Positions 2-31,496 of a DNA stretch of 46,213 bases are shown one piece after another (position 1 is the stretch's first letter; the number at the start of each line of letters is the position of its first letter). The notes under the pieces were generated by a model, which was not told where the DNA came from, did no database searches, and worked only from the letters and a program-made list of their open reading frames with translations. The stretch is from Candidatus Babeliales bacterium. Lineage in GTDB: Bacteria > Patescibacteriota > Saccharimonadia > Saccharimonadales > UBA10212. Both the position numbers and the translations under genes were made by a program. The stretch is taken from NCBI GenBank assembly GCA_035479215.1, contig DATIIZ010000030.1:1-46213 (forward strand), read 5' to 3'.

Positions 2-166
2 GATGAGCTAGTGATAATCAACTTTGAAGAACCCCAAACTGGAATCAGAATTAAGGATGCAGCCATTGCAGACTCATTTAAACAGCTGTGGAGCGCTTTT
101 GATGAAAACCTGCGGGCCAATCCCTCATACAAAAAACTCCCTCAAAAAGCCCGCCGGCAGGTCTAG
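2..166 (+). CDS. 3' end of a CDS entering from upstream of the window; possible paralog of the TrmB-like regulator at 27293..28060
   Basis: The frame is open from the window edge to TAG at 164-166. DELVIINFEEPQTGIRIKDAAIADSFKQLWSAF resembles by eye DKVSLISFGEEAIGTIIESPQIAQALRQVFEMA at the C-terminus of the 255-aa HTH protein. Confidence 0.4.
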   Translation, partial: DELVIINFEEPQTGIRIKDAAIADSFKQLWSAFDENLRANPSYKKLPQKARRQV

Positions 167-198
167 CCAATCTCTTAGAAACCGCAAAATCGTATAGT

Positions 199-783
199 TT
201 AGGATGTAAATCGTTGGATATCAAAAGATGGGTCTTTAGCTAGTGCCAGTTTTGAGAGTAGCTCAAATAGTCTAGATAATTGAATGTCCCTTTCTGTTAG
301 TAAGTCAATTGGGAATTTGCCGAGTTTTCTTTCCTCTAGGCTTTTACCAATAATCTCCATGGAAAGAGTAAAAAGACTTGTATTCATATTCTCCGCCTCA
401 TTAAAGAGCTCTAAGATATCGTCATCAACTTGATATACGGGTTCACTGTCGTAAATTGGAGCATCTGGGTTTATAGCTAGCTCTATTTTCCGCGCTTTTA
501 ATGCCTTGGCGGCCCATAGTTTATGGAATAAGTTATTTGTTTCGTGGGCCAGAATTATTTTACCGCCGTACTGTAGTTTTCTAGGAGGCTTCCCGCTGTT
601 ATAAAGTGGCTCTCCCGAATATGCATCATCCTTGAAAGATATCTCACTATAATTCCAACCTTTGCTTGGGTATACGGCTTCAATAATTGCTCTCGCAGAG
701 CGGTCTCTTTTTGCTCCAACTGTCCTTAACTCAGATTGAACAGATTCTCCTAAATGCGAAGGACCATTTTTTCTATCCATCAT
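199..783 (-). CDS. hypothetical protein (194 aa)
   Basis: Long ORF with native-like composition, last gene of the minus-strand dnaG-sigma cluster. No motif recognised. Confidence 0.55.
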   Translation of the reverse strand: MMDRKNGPSHLGESVQSELRTVGAKRDRSARAIIEAVYPSKGWNYSEISFKDDAYSGEPLYNSGKPPRKLQYGGKIILAHETNNLFHKLWAAKALKARKIELAINPDAPIYDSEPVYQVDDDILELFNEAENMNTSLFTLSMEIIGKSLEERKLGKFPIDLLTERDIQLSRLFELLSKLALAKDPSFDIQRFTS

Positions 784-13344: not shown

Positions 13345-13435
13345 TGGCGGAGGGACAGGGATTCGAACCCTGGATACCCTTGCGGGTAAACCGCCTTTCC
13401 AAGGCGGCGCCATAGACCAACTAGGCGACCCCTCC
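13345..13435 (-). tRNA. tRNA-Ser (anticodon GGA), CCA encoded
   Basis: The reverse complement is GGAGGGGTCGCCTAGTTGGTCTATGGCGCCGCCTTGGAAAGGCGGTTTACCCGCAAGGGTATCCAGGGTTCGAATCCCTGTCCCTCCGCCA. The anticodon loop is UUGGAAA, with a long variable arm and a GGTTCGAATCC T-loop. Confidence 0.9.
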
Positions 13436-27296: not shown

Positions 27297-28060
27297 GCCT
27301 TCTGAGCTATTAATTGCTTGGCTCCGACTTTAGCCATCTCGAAAACTTGTCTTAGGGCTTGGGCGATCTGTGGGCTTTCTATGATAGTGCCGATGGCTTC
27401 CTCGCCGAAAGATATTAAGGATACCTTATCTCCGTAAATTGATATCTCAACAGGAGCGGTATAAGATTTAGGCGGATACCAGGCCATATCTCTTTTTAAC
27501 TCCGTATCATTTTGTTTAGCCCAATCGATAGCTGAAGGAAAGGCCGGTGCTAACCCGTGGGCATTAATACCTGCTTTAGACCGCTTCTGCATATATTTGT
27601 ATAGAACGTCGCCGAAGTATTCCTCGTCTGCTGGGGTGCGGATAAAGTAAACATCTTTGCCAGTTCTTAAATGATCTTCGTAGATTTTGGTTAAACCTTC
27701 CTTGCCTTGATAGAACCTAACGCCGGGTTCGCCCCTGTTGCTGTAATAATAAGTCAGTAACTGAGGCAGGGAACTGCGGTAAAGATCTTCGGCTGACGAA
27801 ACTTCTTTTCGCTTTTGGGCGATGAATTTTTCCAATGCGGAAGGGTTGGCTGGGGAGTAAGTCGCTTTCTTGGCATCACCTTCTTTTGTTGCCAGGCCGA
27901 TTTCTTCTAATTTGGCCAGGGACATGTAAGCCGCCGTCCGTGATTCCTTTATACGACCCGCCAATTGCGGCGGGGTTAGACTACCAGCTTTTATGAGTGC
28001 AATGTAGCTTTTGGCCTGGGAGTTGGTCAAACCGAATTGCTTGAGTGTTTCAGCATTCAC
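27293..28060 (-). CDS. TrmB-like winged-HTH transcriptional regulator
   Basis: N-terminal LTNSQAKSYIALIKAGSLTPPQLAGRIKESRTAAYMSLAKLEEIGL. GTG start. It is divergent from GC-rich island 2. Confidence 0.65.
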   Translation of the reverse strand: MNAETLKQFGLTNSQAKSYIALIKAGSLTPPQLAGRIKESRTAAYMSLAKLEEIGLATKEGDAKKATYSPANPSALEKFIAQKRKEVSSAEDLYRSSLPQLLTYYYSNRGEPGVRFYQGKEGLTKIYEDHLRTGKDVYFIRTPADEEYFGDVLYKYMQKRSKAGINAHGLAPAFPSAIDWAKQNDTELKRDMAWYPPKSYTAPVEISIYGDKVSLISFGEEAIGTIIESPQIAQALRQVFEMAKVGAKQLIAQKA

Positions 28061-28148
28061 TATCCGATATTATCAATAGTTTCATACTTTGTAAAGTTAT
28101 AAATTGACAAAAATAACACTTTAAACAGATATAAAATTAAGCTTATAA

Positions 28149-28177
28149 TTGACATTATAATGTAATTAAGTCATAAT
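28149..28177 (+). promoter_or_regulatory. promoter of island 2
   Basis: TTGACA-N17-CATAAT. A second TTGACA lies at 28104-28109 within a repeated TTATAA(A)TTGACA motif. Confidence 0.55.
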
Positions 28178-28227
28178 ATCGCCGTCAGTTTGCATAAGCA
28201 AGTTGACGCACATTACAAGGAGAAGCC

Positions 28228-28656
28228 ATGGATGAGGAAACTGCCTATCAGAAAGCTAATGAACTCGTATGTCAGCTTTACGGCGTGGGTAGCCCGGTCT
28301 CCGACGAAGAGGTTCGAGTTCTGATAGCCGGCAGGAGGCGCCAACGAATTACTTTGGCTCTTCAGCTTGTCGGGATATCAGAGCTATCTGGGTTTAGTCC
28401 CACGGAGCTCGTGGAGATGCTGGATTTCGATCTTCGTGCACCACATGCCTACGTAGAGTATGCCCGCTACTTCAAGCGAGCCTGCAAAGTCTTCTGTAAG
28501 AAGGGCTATGGGTCTGAGATTCAGCGAGTTCTGACAACCGACGGGATGTTTGGGAGGCAGGGCAACGAGCCCTTTTTGTCTCCAGCCTCGTTGATTAGGT
28601 CAAGGGACGTTAGCGGTCTTGACGACCTGATCTTCAACCTTCCACCAAAGGAGTAG
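28228..28656 (+). CDS. orphan GC-rich ORF C (142 aa)
   Basis: ATG 5 nt after AAGGAG; higher GC than the flanking genes; no family recognised. Confidence 0.55.
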   Translation: MDEETAYQKANELVCQLYGVGSPVSDEEVRVLIAGRRRQRITLALQLVGISELSGFSPTELVEMLDFDLRAPHAYVEYARYFKRACKVFCKKGYGSEIQRVLTTDGMFGRQGNEPFLSPASLIRSRDVSGLDDLIFNLPPKE

Positions 28657-28935
28657 GAGTTCGGAGCCAAGAGAACCCTCCCCACGACGAGGGCGGGCAA
28701 GAGTGGAGCAGGGTGGAGCGCTTCGGTGCTCATCCTAAGGATCTGCAACCTGTCGAAAGGCAGGAAAACTTCTCTCCGCAACGAGGGAGAAGTAGCAGTC
28801 AGAGGTAACTCACTTGGCTTAATAGCGACGCAGCCTCCTCTGATGTCTGGCTTGAAAAACCAGGTACCTTCCAGGGCGGTCGCTCCTTTGGGGGTGTGAG
28901 CTCGGGACATTTGTCCTTGAGCTCCACCCCCTTAA
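28657..28935 (+). ncRNA. unclassified highly structured GC-rich RNA region
   Basis: No ORF of 60 aa or more on the + strand. Hairpins include GAGCGC-UUCG-GUGCUC (28716-28731), CCUGUC-GAAA-GGCAGG (28749-28764) and CUUCUCUC-N8-GGGAGAAG (28769-28792). A composite hairpin of 17 paired bases spans 28890-28931. The tetraloops are canonical only on the + strand. Confidence 0.45.
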
Positions 28936-29007
28936 AACGTAGGCAGATGTGTATCTGCCCTGATGAGGCCAACCCGCCAAGAGGCGGGCAAAGAAGGCCG
29001 AAACGTT
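28936..29007 (+). ncRNA. type III hammerhead self-cleaving ribozyme (predicted cleavage between 28941 and 28942)
   Basis: AACGUA|GGCAGAU-GUGU-AUCUGCC-CUGAUGA-GGCC[...CCCGCC-AAGA-GGCGGG...]GGCC-GAAA-CGUU. All invariant core nucleotides, the G10.1-C11.1 pair, the A15.1-U16.1 pair and the GUA cleavage triplet are present. Confidence 0.78.
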
Positions 29008-29024
29008 AATTAATCAAGGAATAT

Positions 29025-29849
29025 ATGAACGAAACTTTAGATAATCAAATTCAAGATCCTGAGAAGGCTCATGCAATGGCTTTGGCCGGTGATGGATTTA
29101 GAACTGAGGCTGTTCAAAAACGCCAGAAAGCTGCCGCAATCCAGTTAGCTAAATTAGCCTATGAAGACACGACCGATCAAGACACTCGCAAGAAAATATT
29201 AAATGGTGCTTTTACAGAGGTGGGTGTAAATGATTTTTGGAGTCGGCCAGATATAGTTGGGAGGCGACCAGGATCATTTAGAAGCCGGAATTTAGGGAAC
29301 AATTCTTCGCAAGATGACATTAATGCACGGCGAGATAGGCAGATTGCGAGTTTTCTCGGGTCGCATACCAGATATGAGGATCGGGCTCAAGAATTAGAAA
29401 GCTTAGCCGAAGAAAAAGAATCGTGGGCCGAACTAATATTTGACAATCCTGCTGTCGAACATTACAAAAAAATTCACCCTGAACTTAACATTGAAGACCA
29501 ATGGCGGCTGGAATGCATAGTAAATCAGGCTAGGGCATATTATGAAGGCCATCTTAGTGATATGCCGAGGTACAGAGAGGTCCTCCAAGACGGTAAATAT
29601 GTGCCGGGAGGGTTGCTCCAGCACCTATTTCCGAATAGTTTTTCTGAAGAAGATGAGGAAGAGTTTGAACCTAACTCCGAATTGCTGAAACTTTTAAATA
29701 ACGGTGGCACGACCGTTGACCAGCTACGTGAATTCCTACTGCGCCAGGAAGAGATAAAACTTGAAGCGGAGAAAAAGCGAGCTGAAGATCTTACGCAAAT
29801 GCTCGCTGATATTAAAAAAAGACAGCTTAGTGCGAACTTGGAAAATTAG
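29025..29849 (+). CDS. hypothetical protein (274 aa, charged, coiled-coil-like C-terminus)
   Basis: Native-like composition, SD AAGGA, starts 18 nt after the ribozyme. Confidence 0.6.
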   Translation: MNETLDNQIQDPEKAHAMALAGDGFRTEAVQKRQKAAAIQLAKLAYEDTTDQDTRKKILNGAFTEVGVNDFWSRPDIVGRRPGSFRSRNLGNNSSQDDINARRDRQIASFLGSHTRYEDRAQELESLAEEKESWAELIFDNPAVEHYKKIHPELNIEDQWRLECIVNQARAYYEGHLSDMPRYREVLQDGKYVPGGLLQHLFPNSFSEEDEEEFEPNSELLKLLNNGGTTVDQLREFLLRQEEIKLEAEKKRAEDLTQMLADIKKRQLSANLEN

Positions 29850-30712
29850 AACTCTAGTGCGGTTTTGACGCGGGCGATGCTGTCTTCGGGGTTGAGTTCG
29901 TCGAACCAGACCACCTGCCAACCTTGTTTGTCGGCGGCTGTCAGGTAAGGGCGCTCATTATCTACTAGCAAGATTTCGTTGGGCTCCATGGCGGCCAGTT
30001 CCTGGGCGGTCTGATAAATCTTGGGGTCCGGTTTAACGGCGCCGGCTTTAGATGAATCGACGGCTACTTTGTAGTTTAAATCTGGGATAAGTTTCTTTTG
30101 CAGCAGCTCGTCAACGAAACCGGGCATGCTGTTGGAAAGCAGACCGATCTCGTAATTTTCTGCTACCCAGTCCAACAGAGGCACAATGCCCGGGATGGGC
30201 TCCACACTAGCCATGTAATATTTGTGCCAGTCGAACCCGGGCACGTCCAGCTCTTGGCCCATCAGTTTATTGAACTCTTCGCCACTCATATTACCGGTCG
30301 CACCCGTATCATTGCGGCGCCAAAAAAGGGCTTCGCCCATATCGACAGGTTTATTAACATCTTGCGCGACCATCGTAAAAGCCCGGTGGAAAAAGTGCAC
30401 CAGCGTACCGTTAACATCAAAGAATACAAATCGTACGCCGGTTTTGGAACGTTTCTTAGTGTTTATCGGAGCGGTAGACTCGATGCCGCGGCTTTGTAGC
30501 TCTAATAAATCTTCAAGCTTGGCACCCGTTACCGAAGCGATATTAGCGACAGTAAAAACAGATGGTGAGCGGATAGCACCACGTTCTATCTTTGCCAAAG
30601 TCGAATAACTTAGTCCGGCTTTTTGGCACAGCTCCTGCTGGGTCATGCCGGCGCGTTTGCGCGCTAACTGTAAACGATTGCCAAGAGCTTTTTCATCCAT
30701 AGCAATGCCCAC
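29846..30712 (-). CDS. XRE-family HTH fused to a HAD-like hydrolase domain
   Basis: The N-terminus LGNRLQLARKRAGMTQQELCQKAGLSYSTLAKIERG is followed by FVFFDVNGTLVHF (DxxGT motif I) and a C-terminal LLVDNE. The start could instead be the ATG at 30700. Confidence 0.7.
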   Translation of the reverse strand: MGIAMDEKALGNRLQLARKRAGMTQQELCQKAGLSYSTLAKIERGAIRSPSVFTVANIASVTGAKLEDLLELQSRGIESTAPINTKKRSKTGVRFVFFDVNGTLVHFFHRAFTMVAQDVNKPVDMGEALFWRRNDTGATGNMSGEEFNKLMGQELDVPGFDWHKYYMASVEPIPGIVPLLDWVAENYEIGLLSNSMPGFVDELLQKKLIPDLNYKVAVDSSKAGAVKPDPKIYQTAQELAAMEPNEILLVDNERPYLTAADKQGWQVVWFDELNPEDSIARVKTALEF

Positions 30713-31406: not shown

Positions 31407-31496
31407 GGAGGAGTGGCCGAGCGGTTGAAGGCGCTGCTCTCGAAAAGCAGTATATGGGAAACCGTATCGCGAGTTCGAATCTCGCCTCCTCCGCCA
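31407..31496 (+). tRNA. tRNA-Ser (anticodon CGA), CCA encoded
   Basis: GGAGGAGTGGCCGAGCGGTTGAAGGCGCTGCTCTCGAAAAGCAG...GAGTTCGAATCTCGCCTCCTCCGCCA. The anticodon loop is CUCGAAA, with a long variable arm. Confidence 0.9.

What the first reader, a model, noticed from the sequence alone, without database searches (positions are those of the whole stretch)
28657..28935. About 280 nt of densely structured GC-rich non-coding RNA of unknown class upstream of the ribozyme
There is no plausible + strand ORF here, yet the stretch is packed with hairpins capped by canonical stable tetraloops that only read correctly on the + strand. These include GAGCGC-UUCG-GUGCUC, CCUGUC-GAAA-GGCAGG and CUUCUCUC-(CGCAACGA)-GGGAGAAG. 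CAGAGG...CCUCUG closes a larger domain. A composite hairpin of 17 paired bases (28890-28931, GGGGGUG-U-GAGCUC-G-GGAC-AUUU-GUCC-UU-GAGCUC-CACCCCC) ends 10 nt before the cleavage site. After cleavage this hairpin would protect the new 3' end. I could not match the region to RNase P, tmRNA, SRP, 6S, twister or cobalamin motifs. It may be a new RNA class or a divergent member of a large ncRNA family.
Basis: seen in the sequence. Interest (0 to 1): 0.72.

Follow-up and report, generated by a model that had tools for sequence, protein, structure and literature searches.

The report
New structured RNA beside a hammerhead
A roughly 270-base stretch between two genes of an uncultured Saccharibacteria-like bacterium folds into a conserved, multi-helix RNA that matches no known RNA family and ends just before a self-cleaving hammerhead ribozyme; it appears to be a new, narrowly distributed non-coding RNA whose job is still unknown.

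Summary
Window 28661-28931 (+) is non-coding, G+C-rich (0.56 against about 0.45 around it) and folds better than all 200 shuffles (z -3.6). The P9 hairpin ends 10 nt before the hammerhead cleavage site (28941/28942).

I found two further diverged homologues at the same locus in related Candidatus Saccharimonadales metagenome contigs (L002-type, L063). On a structure-guided three-sequence alignment, 97.5% of cells pair across 86 pairs in 11 helices. Twenty-five pairs changed on both sides (0-7 in slid controls; 0 of 500 shuffles). Frame-breaking indels exclude coding.

None of the 4227 Rfam families matches any of the three copies, even at E<=10. Phage, plasmid, IMG/VR, GTDB-representative and JGI metagenome collections gave no true copy.

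The RNA sits in a hypervariable slot, always upstream of an orphan acidic all-helical protein family (ORF274). That family usually carries the same hammerhead before its ribosome-binding site.

Best reading (inferred): a self-contained ncRNA co-transcribed with the operon, its 3' end cut by the hammerhead. A cis-regulatory leader is the main rival. It is a new RNA family, but with only three lineages and no known function.

The parts
28149..28177 (+). Sigma-70-like promoter (TTGACA, 17 nt, CATAAT) that most likely drives the whole ORF142-RNA-hammerhead-ORF274 transcript
   Evidence: 11 of 12 matches, the best site in 27900-30000. No promoter-like site lies directly upstream of the RNA. A TTGACA...(C/T)ATAAT-type promoter is readable at the same place in L002, L063, L001 and L071.
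28183..28208 (+). 5' leader hairpin (11 bp, AUAA loop) just after the predicted transcription start
   Evidence: Read from the sequence. Hairpins with ACAA or GUAA loops sit at the same place in L002 and L063. Not examined further.
28228..28656 (+). ORF142, the variable first cistron (orphan protein)
   Evidence: It is 34% identical (E 9e-12) to the lone 151-aa ORF at the same slot in L069. It is replaced by a 49-aa hydrophobic peptide ORF in L002 and by a leader with no called ORF in L063.
28664..28820 (+). RNA domain 1, a multi-branch domain closed by P1 (28664-71 with 28813-20). It contains P2 (28676-97), the invariant junction GAGUGGAG (within 28698-28709), P3 with a UUCG loop (28710-36), P4 (28740-46 with 28795-800), P5 with a GAAA loop (28749-64), the variable hairpin P6 (28768-93) and the short P7 (28802-11).
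   Evidence: Coordinates. Pair counts: 1 pair with a change on both sides in P1, 3 in P2, 9 of 12 in P3, 3 of 6 in P5. Each hairpin segment folds alone in all three homologues.
28824..28884 (+). RNA domain 2 (P8), a long irregular hairpin with invariant internal loops CCUCU (5' side) and UUCCA (3' side) and an apical UGAAAA
   Evidence: 6 pairs with changes on both sides, 100% of cells paired. The covariance model R1 finds it only in the three known lineages.
28890..28931 (+). P9, the terminal 18-bp G+C-rich hairpin. The basal 13 bp are invariant and the distal part covaries.
   Evidence: 19 aligned pairs, 3 with changes on both sides. Folding energy is -30 to -33 kcal/mol when folded alone. 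It is not followed by a U-tract, and the scan does not call it a terminator.
28934..29009 (+). Type III hammerhead ribozyme. Predicted cleavage is between A28941 and G28942. Stem II carries an extra hairpin at about 28969-28995.
   Evidence: Rfam RF00008: 32.8 bits (gathering score 48.5), E 3.5e-5 in the local scan. The canonical three-stem fold is the minimum-free-energy structure. Seven related copies have an invariant CUGAUGAG core and differ in stems I and III.
29025..29849 (+). ORF274, an orphan acidic all-alpha protein. The RNA and/or the hammerhead precede members of this family.
   Evidence: no family match. AlphaFold2 mean pLDDT 85, all helical. No Foldseek match with E below 1. pI 4.97.

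Best explanation
Window 28661-28931 (+) encodes a genuine, independently folding structured RNA of about 270 nt. It belongs to a previously undescribed family restricted, so far, to one hypervariable locus of Candidatus Saccharimonadales.

Shown:
- It is non-coding.
- It is conserved in three diverged lineages, with compensatory base changes.
- It has two domains plus a terminal hairpin.
- It matches no Rfam family.

Inferred:
- It is transcribed from the sigma-70-like promoter at 28149-28177 as part of the ORF142-RNA-hammerhead-ORF274 transcript.
- The type III hammerhead immediately downstream cuts between 28941 and 28942.
- The cut separates the RNA from the ORF274 message. The RNA is left with the very stable P9 hairpin plus a 10-nt tail ending in a 2',3'-cyclic phosphate. 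The ORF274 mRNA is left with a 5'-OH, ribozyme-capped leader.

The RNA therefore most likely acts as a self-contained, ribozyme-matured ncRNA working in trans, not as a leader that must stay attached to ORF274. Its molecular target is unknown.
For: Structure and conservation:
- Homologues are in L002-L005 and L064-L066 (one sequence; nhmmer E 3e-98) and in L063 (E 1e-31).
- On the structure-guided alignment A9, 97.5% of 244 cells pair and 25 of 86 pairs changed on both sides. Controls with the partner slid give 0-7, and 0 of 500 shuffles reach the observed value.
- Each hairpin folds on its own in all three copies. z-scores are -3.6, -4.0 and -4.0.
- Invariant junctions and internal loops sit among variable helices.

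Not known, not coding:
- No Rfam hit in any copy.
- No conserved frame; many frame-breaking indels.

Modular and cut off:
- In the 406-nt transcript model the RNA helices and all three hammerhead stems coexist.
- The cleavage site is 10 nt after P9 in the window and similarly placed in L063.
- The same hammerhead precedes ORF274-family genes that lack the RNA. There, other G+C hairpins precede the cut. So the ancestral context cleaves off whatever lies upstream.

Independence from neighbours:
- The upstream cistron differs in every lineage.
- The L063 protein is only 23% identical to ORF274, while nhmmer still detects the L063 RNA at E 1e-31 over nearly the full model.
- The ORF274 family is acidic (pI 4.7-5.2), which is unlike a dedicated RNA-binding partner.

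Precedents:
- Self-cleaving ribozymes placed at the 3' end of structured RNAs (theta ribozymes next to phage tRNAs, PMC10879173).
- Hammerheads cutting bacterial polycistronic RNAs into gene-length pieces (PMC3088659).
Against: - Only three lineages are known, all at one syntenic locus. The linkage to ORF274 and to the hammerhead may reflect descent, not function.
- The alignment used for pair counts was built by hand to fit the structure, which inflates the percentage paired. Three sequences give no R-scape-type power.
- No transcript data exist. Promoter use, cleavage in vivo, RNA stability and the 5' end are all inferred.
- The L002 lineage keeps the RNA but has lost the hammerhead, so the RNA stays joined to the ORF262 message 20 nt before its ribosome-binding site. 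That arrangement fits a cis-acting leader.
- No trans target, partner protein or catalytic activity can be named.
Confidence: 0.42

Rival explanations
1. Cis-regulatory leader (riboswitch-like or attenuator). Domains 1 and 2 sense a ligand or factor. P9 with the anti-SD-like J8/9 (CUCCUUU) is the expression platform that controls read-through or translation of the ORF274-family gene.
For: - The RNA is always directly upstream of, and on the same strand as, an ORF274-family gene.
- In L002 it abuts the ribosome-binding site with no ribozyme between them.
- The invariant J2/3 GUGGAG(C) is complementary to the invariant 3' strand of P9 (GCUCCAC) in all three copies. This would allow a P9 versus anti-P9 switch.
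- In minimum-free-energy models of the uncleaved window and L002 transcripts, the Shine-Dalgarno sequence pairs with J8/9.
- The invariant junctions are typical of binding pockets.
Against: - In two of three lineages a hammerhead would sever the sensor from the message.
- P9 has no U-tract and is not called a terminator.
- The Shine-Dalgarno pairing is weak (unpaired probability about 0.33-0.49) and is not predicted in L063.
- The proposed alternative pairings show no covariation.
- The downstream protein is a fast-evolving orphan with no metabolic or transport signature.
- Expression platforms are usually less conserved than aptamers. Here the P9 base is the most invariant helix.
Confidence: 0.28
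2. Passive structural module: a 3' UTR, stabiliser or insulator. The folded RNA and P9 only protect the upstream cistron's message from 3' exonucleases after hammerhead cleavage, with no specific function of their own.
For: - Unrelated stable hairpins precede the cleavage site in loci that lack the RNA.
- P9 is extremely stable (-30 to -33 kcal/mol).
- Known hammerheads cut polycistronic RNAs into gene-length pieces (PMC3088659).
Against: - A simple hairpin suffices elsewhere, so 230 extra nucleotides with invariant loops and compensatory changes across 11 helices would be unexplained.
- The upstream cistron is different or absent in each lineage while the RNA is kept.
- The RNA is retained where the hammerhead is lost.
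Confidence: 0.1
3. Allosteric partner of the ribozyme. The RNA is a sensor domain that tunes hammerhead cleavage, and so the fate of the ORF274 mRNA, in response to a signal.
For: - A complex conserved RNA lies immediately next to a self-cleaving ribozyme in the window and in L063.
- The L063 hammerhead has one mismatch each in stems I and III, as read from the sequence, and a lower Rfam score of 23.1 bits. It could therefore depend on context.
- Regulated hammerheads have been proposed for bacterial and phage contexts (PMC3088659, discussion).
Against: - Predicted folds of the RNA and the ribozyme are independent, with no competing pairing in the minimum-free-energy structure.
- I saw no conserved complementarity between the RNA's invariant segments and the hammerhead strands (by eye).
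- L002 keeps the RNA without any ribozyme.
- The same hammerhead works in loci without the RNA.
Confidence: 0.07
4. Nothing special: a chance G+C-rich spacer, a decayed gene fragment, or a very divergent member of a known RNA family.
For: - The family is tiny and confined to one locus.
- Covariance models can miss extreme divergence.
- G+C-rich sequence folds well on both strands (z -3.1 on the minus strand).
Against: - There are 25 compensated pairs, against 0-7 in slid controls.
- The RNA is still detected (nhmmer E 1e-31) next to a protein that is only 23% identical.
- No consistent weak Rfam hit is shared by the three copies.
- tblastn finds no remnants of neighbouring ORFs.
Confidence: 0.04

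Closest known systems
Theta (minimal HDV-like) ribozymes placed at the 3' end of phage tRNAs (PMC10879173)
   Same: A small self-cleaving ribozyme sits directly downstream of a structured non-coding RNA. Its cleavage site defines that RNA's 3' end, and the ribozyme body stays on the downstream fragment (window geometry).
   Different: Here the ribozyme is a type III hammerhead and the upstream RNA is not a tRNA. The context is a cellular Saccharimonadales operon, with no match in the phage collections searched. One lineage lacks the ribozyme.
Hammerheads that flank genes in bacterial or prophage polycistronic transcripts (Perreault et al. 2011, PMC3088659)
   Same: Hammerheads lie between cistrons and are inferred to cut long transcripts into gene-length RNAs. 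L001 even has two hammerheads flanking one ORF.
   Different: That work describes the ribozymes, not an associated 270-nt conserved RNA. The element examined here is the upstream RNA, which has its own conserved architecture.
Large orphan bacterial ncRNAs found as G+C-rich structured intergenic regions (OLE, GOLLD, ROOL, HEARO, raiA; comparison from general knowledge plus the Rfam test)
   Same: It is a G+C-rich island in an A+T-richer genome. It has many helices, with invariant junctions and covarying stems, and a narrow phylogenetic range. Function cannot be deduced from sequence.
   Different: No sequence or structure match to any of them. From general knowledge it is smaller than GOLLD, ROOL and OLE. 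It is embedded in an operon and followed by a ribozyme.
Riboswitches and other 5' leader regulators; the glmS ribozyme as a leader that cleaves upstream of its ORF (general knowledge)
   Same: Its position is upstream of and co-oriented with a coding gene. It has conserved junctions. Cleavage leaves a 5'-OH on the downstream mRNA, as in glmS.
   Different: No recognisable expression platform. The cleaving element is a separate constitutive-type hammerhead that also occurs without the RNA. The downstream gene is a fast-evolving orphan.

Membership tests
Any Rfam 15 family (4227 covariance models, including RNase P, tmRNA, SRP, 6S, T-box, cobalamin, twister, OLE, GOLLD, ROOL, HEARO, raiA) | Covariance-model score at or above the family's gathering threshold, or at least a consistent sub-threshold hit in all homologues | tested here: not met
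   whole window; 28500-29100, E<=10; L063, E<=10; L002, E<=10. Only chance-level hits appear, they differ in each copy, and none is near its threshold.
tRNA / tmRNA | ARAGORN-detectable cloverleaf or tmRNA with tag peptide | tested here: not met
   0 genes in 28400-29100.
Protein-coding sequence | An open reading frame kept in homologues; indels in multiples of three | tested here: not met
   every frame has stops in at least one copy. Indel runs are mostly of 1, 2, 4, 5 or 7 nt; no tblastn remnants.
Hammerhead ribozyme type III (the adjacent element 28934-29009, not the RNA itself) | Core CUGAUGA...GAAA, three stems with stem III open, cleavage triplet NUH | tested here: met
   (core, GUA triplet, three-stem minimum-free-energy fold). 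(7 copies, invariant CUGAUGAG core, differing stem sequences). The Rfam score is below the gathering threshold (32.8 against 48.5), most likely because of an insertion in stem II.
Hammerhead ribozyme type III (the adjacent element) | Self-cleavage activity | not testable with these tools
   Needs in vitro transcription or in vivo end mapping.
Intrinsic (Rho-independent) terminator, considered for P9 | G+C-rich hairpin immediately followed by a U-tract | tested here: not met
   One search does not call P9. Its tails are UUAAAA (window), UUCACAAU (L002) and UUUAAAA (L063).
Riboswitch / cis-regulatory leader | Recurrent position upstream of homologous genes | tested here: met
   Three of three lineages. 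All are at one syntenic locus, so the observations are not independent.
Riboswitch / cis-regulatory leader | Expression platform (terminator or SD-sequestering helix) mutually exclusive with the aptamer fold | tested here: inconclusive
   Candidate pairings are J2/3 with the P9 3' strand, and J8/9 with the Shine-Dalgarno sequence. There is no covariation, and the predicted occupancy is weak.
Riboswitch / cis-regulatory leader | Specific ligand binding | not testable with these tools
   Needs in-line probing or ITC.
Reverse-transcriptase-associated ncRNAs (retron msr-msd, DRT-type) | Adjacent reverse transcriptase gene | tested here: not met
   Neighbouring proteins have no RT or other Pfam, NCBIfam or PADLOC domain. 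ORF274 is all-alpha.
Type III toxin-antitoxin RNA | Tandem direct repeats upstream of an endoribonuclease toxin | tested here: not met
   no tandem or direct repeats within the RNA.
Ribozyme-matured ncRNA (theta-ribozyme/tRNA-like arrangement) | Self-cleaving ribozyme whose cleavage site lies within a few nucleotides of the 3' end of a structured RNA | tested here: met
   Window: 10 nt between P9 and the cut. L063: same layout. Not met in L002, where the hammerhead is absent.

The most novel reading that the evidence does not exclude
The RNA is a sensor or catalytic domain that works together with the adjacent ribozyme. That would make it a natural allosteric hammerhead, in which a large aptamer-like domain gates self-cleavage and so the fate of the downstream message. 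Alternatively, it is itself a new large ribozyme or RNP core specific to ultrasmall episymbiotic Patescibacteria.
Probability: 0.1. Interest if true: 0.85.

Novelty: categorically new. Interest (0 to 1): 0.6.

Why it matters
Candidate Phyla Radiation bacteria such as Saccharibacteria have tiny genomes. Full-text literature searches here returned no report of structured RNAs or hammerheads from them.

A 270-nt RNA with 11 supported helices and invariant loops, kept while the flanking genes are swapped or diverge to 23% identity, implies selection on the RNA itself. This occurs in a hypervariable genomic slot of an obligate episymbiont.

The recurring pairing of a conserved hammerhead with the ribosome-binding site of one orphan protein family is also a clean natural example of ribozyme-based transcript insulation or processing in a cellular operon. 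If the RNA proves to be ribozyme-matured, or to modulate the ribozyme, it would extend the known biological uses of hammerheads in bacteria. It would also provide a new RNA fold for structural study.

Tried and rejected
Searches for more copies that found nothing real:
- blastn (distant mode) against phage and plasmid records: no match.
- IMG/VR pattern scans with four RNA-derived patterns. nhmmer showed the matches to be seeds only; two searches found nothing.
- GTDB representative genomes, two-block pattern: one chance hit inside a Lachnospiraceae coding region.
- JGI metagenomes, a strict two-block pattern: 0 matches.
- JGI metagenomes, protein-guided scan: three distant ORF274 relatives with no RNA and no convincing hammerhead.
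- IMG/VR with the protein profile and with a hammerhead pattern: nothing.
- nhmmer and a covariance model of domain 2 plus P9 over the held sequence (nhmmer: all loci; model: window and 13 selected loci): no extra copies, and only one copy in the window.

Function of the neighbouring proteins: Pfam, PHROGs, PADLOC, NCBIfam, a profile search of 1.8 billion representatives, and AlphaFold2 plus Foldseek (PDB, BFVD) all came back empty.

Ideas rejected:
- Known family (Rfam).
- Coding region.
- Terminator.
- Tandem-repeat antitoxin.
- RT-associated ncRNA (no RT gene).
- RNP with ORF274 as a dedicated RNA-binding partner (the protein is acidic).
- Remnant of ORF142 upstream of the L063 copy.

DNA of two promising JGI contigs could not be served. 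They are 3300048101, with a 366-nt gap before a 274-aa ORF, and 3300050046.

Full report
**1. What is at the coordinates.**
The finding lies in a 368-nt gap between two + strand ORFs: ORF142 (28228-28656) and ORF274 (29025-29849). G+C is 0.55-0.57 here against roughly 0.40-0.50 in most of the surrounding sequence.
- The terminal hairpin (28890-28931) ends 10 nt before the GUA cleavage triplet of a type III hammerhead.
- That hammerhead is Rfam RF00008 at 32.8 bits, below the gathering score of 48.5, with E 3.5e-5 in a local scan. Its canonical three-stem fold is the minimum-free-energy structure.
- The 279-nt stretch folds at -120.1 kcal/mol against -100.9 +/- 5.3 for dinucleotide shuffles (z -3.6). 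The reverse strand also folds well (z -3.1), so thermodynamics alone does not give the strand.

**2. Genomic setting.**
The window is cellular, not viral. It carries valyl-tRNA synthetase, TsaD, a Mur ligase, a HIT protein and tRNAs. Names attached to close homologues of the neighbouring TrmB-like regulator place it in Candidatus Saccharimonadales (Saccharibacteria/TM7, Patescibacteria).

The best promoter-like site in 27900-30000 is TTGACA-17-CATAAT at 28149-28177, upstream of ORF142. Nothing promoter-like lies directly before the RNA, and P9 is not terminator-like. I therefore infer one transcript: leader, ORF142, RNA, hammerhead, ORF274.

**3. Homologues.**
ORF274 has only three close protein clusters among 5.8 billion proteins. 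Fetching their contigs, and contigs of TrmB homologues, gave two further RNA lineages.
- One sequence is shared by L002-L005 and L064-L066 (nhmmer E 3e-98).
- A more diverged copy is in L063 (E 1e-31).
- All lie at the same slot, between the TrmB-like gene and an HTH-HAD gene.
- That slot is hypervariable. Other relatives with 80-85% identical TrmB carry unrelated small ORFs there and no RNA.

The contexts differ.
- Window: ORF142, RNA, hammerhead, ORF274.
- L063: a roughly 190-nt leader without a called ORF, RNA, hammerhead (with one mismatch each in stems I and III), then a 278-aa protein.
- L002 type: a 49-aa hydrophobic peptide ORF, then the RNA, then directly the ribosome-binding site of a 262-aa protein, with no hammerhead.
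- L001, L070 and L071 carry ORF274-family genes preceded by a near-identical hammerhead but lack the RNA. A different G+C hairpin sits 5-23 nt before the cut instead.

No copy was found in phage or plasmid records, IMG/VR, GTDB representative genomes or JGI metagenomes with the patterns I could afford.

**4. Structure.**
MAFFT misaligns one helix of L063, so I built a structure-guided alignment of the three sequences. It is stored as A9, with N standing for a gap.

The model has two domains and a terminal hairpin.
- Domain 1 is closed by P1 (GAGCCAAG/CUUGGCUU). It contains P2, P3 (UUCG or UAUA loop), P4 branching into P5 (GAAA, GAGA or CGAGAU loop) and a variable P6, and a short P7.
- Domain 2 is a long irregular hairpin (P8) with invariant internal loops CCUCU and UUCCA and an apical UGAAAA.
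- P9 is a 17-19-bp terminal hairpin.

Counting on A9:
- 86 pairs in 11 helices, with 97.5% of 244 cells paired.
- 25 pairs have changes on both sides.
- Sliding the partners by 1-3 columns gives 37-46% paired and 0-7 such pairs. None of 500 shuffles reaches the observed values.
- P3 is almost entirely re-written in L063 yet keeps a 12-bp hairpin.
- P1 has one A-U to G-C swap. The distal part of P9 covaries while its basal 13 bp are invariant.
- P6 was left unpaired in the count because its alignment is ambiguous, although it folds as a hairpin in the window and L002 and weakly in L063.

Twenty-three G-U cells would be A-C on the opposite strand, so + is the RNA strand.

Caveats: the alignment was fitted to the structure, three sequences give no formal statistical power, and all are orthologous.

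**5. Not coding, not a known family.**
No reading frame is open in all three copies, and the copies differ by many indels that are not multiples of three. The full Rfam 15 library gives nothing at gathering thresholds. At E<=10 it gives only scattered chance hits that differ among the three copies. ARAGORN finds nothing. There are no internal repeats. The neighbouring proteins include no reverse transcriptase, nuclease or other recognisable domain.

**6. The protein partner.**
ORF274 belongs to a small orphan family. A profile search of 1.8 billion representatives found 46 remote relatives. It models confidently (mean pLDDT 85) as an all-helical protein with no Foldseek match in the PDB or BFVD. 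The family is acidic (pI 4.7-5.2).

The L063 protein is only 23% identical to ORF274, yet nhmmer still detects the L063 RNA at E 1e-31 over nearly the full model. The RNA is therefore conserved independently of the protein, and the protein does not look like a dedicated RNA binder.

**7. How it most likely works.**
Shown: a conserved, complex, independently folding RNA, with a hammerhead whose cut would fall 10 nt after P9. In a 406-nt transcript model both modules fold without interfering.

Inferred: the ancestral arrangement of this gene family places a hammerhead just before the ribosome-binding site (five loci). Anything upstream would therefore be severed from the ORF274 message. An RNA that arose and persisted in that position is more easily explained as a self-contained product than as a leader that must remain attached. 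Its 3' end would be set by the ribozyme and capped by P9.

There are precedents. Theta ribozymes are proposed to mature phage tRNA 3' ends (PMC10879173). Hammerheads have been shown to dissect polycistronic bacterial and prophage RNAs (PMC3088659). I give this reading about 0.4.

The main rival, at about 0.3, is a cis-regulatory leader. It has three points in its favour.
- The L002 lineage keeps the RNA fused to the message.
- The invariant J2/3 GUGGAG(C) is complementary to the invariant 3' strand of P9.
- J8/9 (CUCCUUU) pairs with the Shine-Dalgarno sequence in two minimum-free-energy models.

None of these pairings shows covariation. P9 lacks a U-tract. The predicted SD occlusion is weak.

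Lesser options are a purely protective 3' module (about 0.1), an allosteric controller of the hammerhead (about 0.07), and an artefact or unrecognised known family (about 0.04).

**8. Comparison and novelty.**
In layout the RNA works like ribozyme-matured ncRNAs and like hammerhead-segmented operons. In form it resembles the orphan G+C-rich structured ncRNAs of bacteria. It is a member of none of the curated families tested.

I rate it a new RNA family with no assignable class. Three facts temper this: only three lineages from a single locus are known, no expression data exist, and its function is unknown.

Literature searches found no report of hammerheads or structured ncRNAs in Saccharibacteria or the Candidate Phyla Radiation.

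**9. Verdict.**
The exception is the proposed CAGAGG/CCUCUG closing helix, which remains an untested possible pseudoknot.
- Interest is 0.6. It is a real and unusual RNA in a poorly explored phylum, coupled to a ribozyme, but narrowly distributed and of unknown function.

Noticed in passing
L001 916-970 and 1602-1656 (+): Two same-strand type III hammerheads flank a 144-aa ORF plus about 110 nt. Double cleavage would release a unit of about 686 nt with 5'-OH and 2',3'-cyclic phosphate ends. That could be a single-gene mRNA or a circularisable RNA.
   Followed up: partly
window 28934-29009; L063 4359-4413 (-); L070 about 125-180; L071 about 2930-2985; L001 1602-1656: A nearly identical hammerhead (GGCAGAUGUG..UCUGCC CUGAUGAG GCC..GGC CGAAACG) sits immediately upstream of the ribosome-binding site of ORF274-family genes in five loci. 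It looks like a conserved natural 'insulator' for this orphan protein family.
   Followed up: partly
L069 about 150-215 (+): Another hammerhead, with different stems, lies upstream of a HIT-family gene in a related Saccharimonadales contig. Hammerheads may be a general transcript-processing device in this lineage.
   Followed up: no
window 28060-29849 and the equivalent slots in L053, L059, L063, L064 and L069: The slot next to the TrmB-like regulator gene is hypervariable among genomes whose TrmB proteins are 78-89% identical. It lies between the TrmB-like and HTH-HAD genes in all loci except one JGI contig, where that side is rearranged. Contents seen: ORF142+RNA+HH+ORF274; 49-aa peptide+RNA+ORF262; leader+RNA+HH+ORF278; one 151-aa ORF; two ORFs of about 100-114 aa; or a five-gene block in that JGI contig.
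   Followed up: partly
window 28183-28208 (+): An 11-bp hairpin with an AUAA loop lies right after the predicted transcription start. Comparable hairpins with ACAA or GUAA loops are at the same position in L002 and L063. It may be a 5' stabiliser of the operon transcript.
   Followed up: no
window about 28969-28995 (+): Stem II of the window's hammerhead carries an extra hairpin (CCCGCC-AAGA-GGCGGG) that is absent from the other copies. This probably explains why the Rfam score falls below the gathering threshold.
   Followed up: partly
L002 990-1139 (+); L001 708-899 (+): The first cistron of the operon is a short hydrophobic peptide in some lineages (49 aa in L002, 63 aa in L001). In the window it is the soluble ORF142. 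ORF142 is 34% identical to the lone 151-aa ORF in L069.
   Followed up: partly
   Followed up: no
window 13348-13435 (-) and 31407-31493 (+): Two tRNAs with long variable arms. The antisense of the first gives a spurious sub-threshold hit to a plastid 3' UTR family (RF04351).
   Followed up: no
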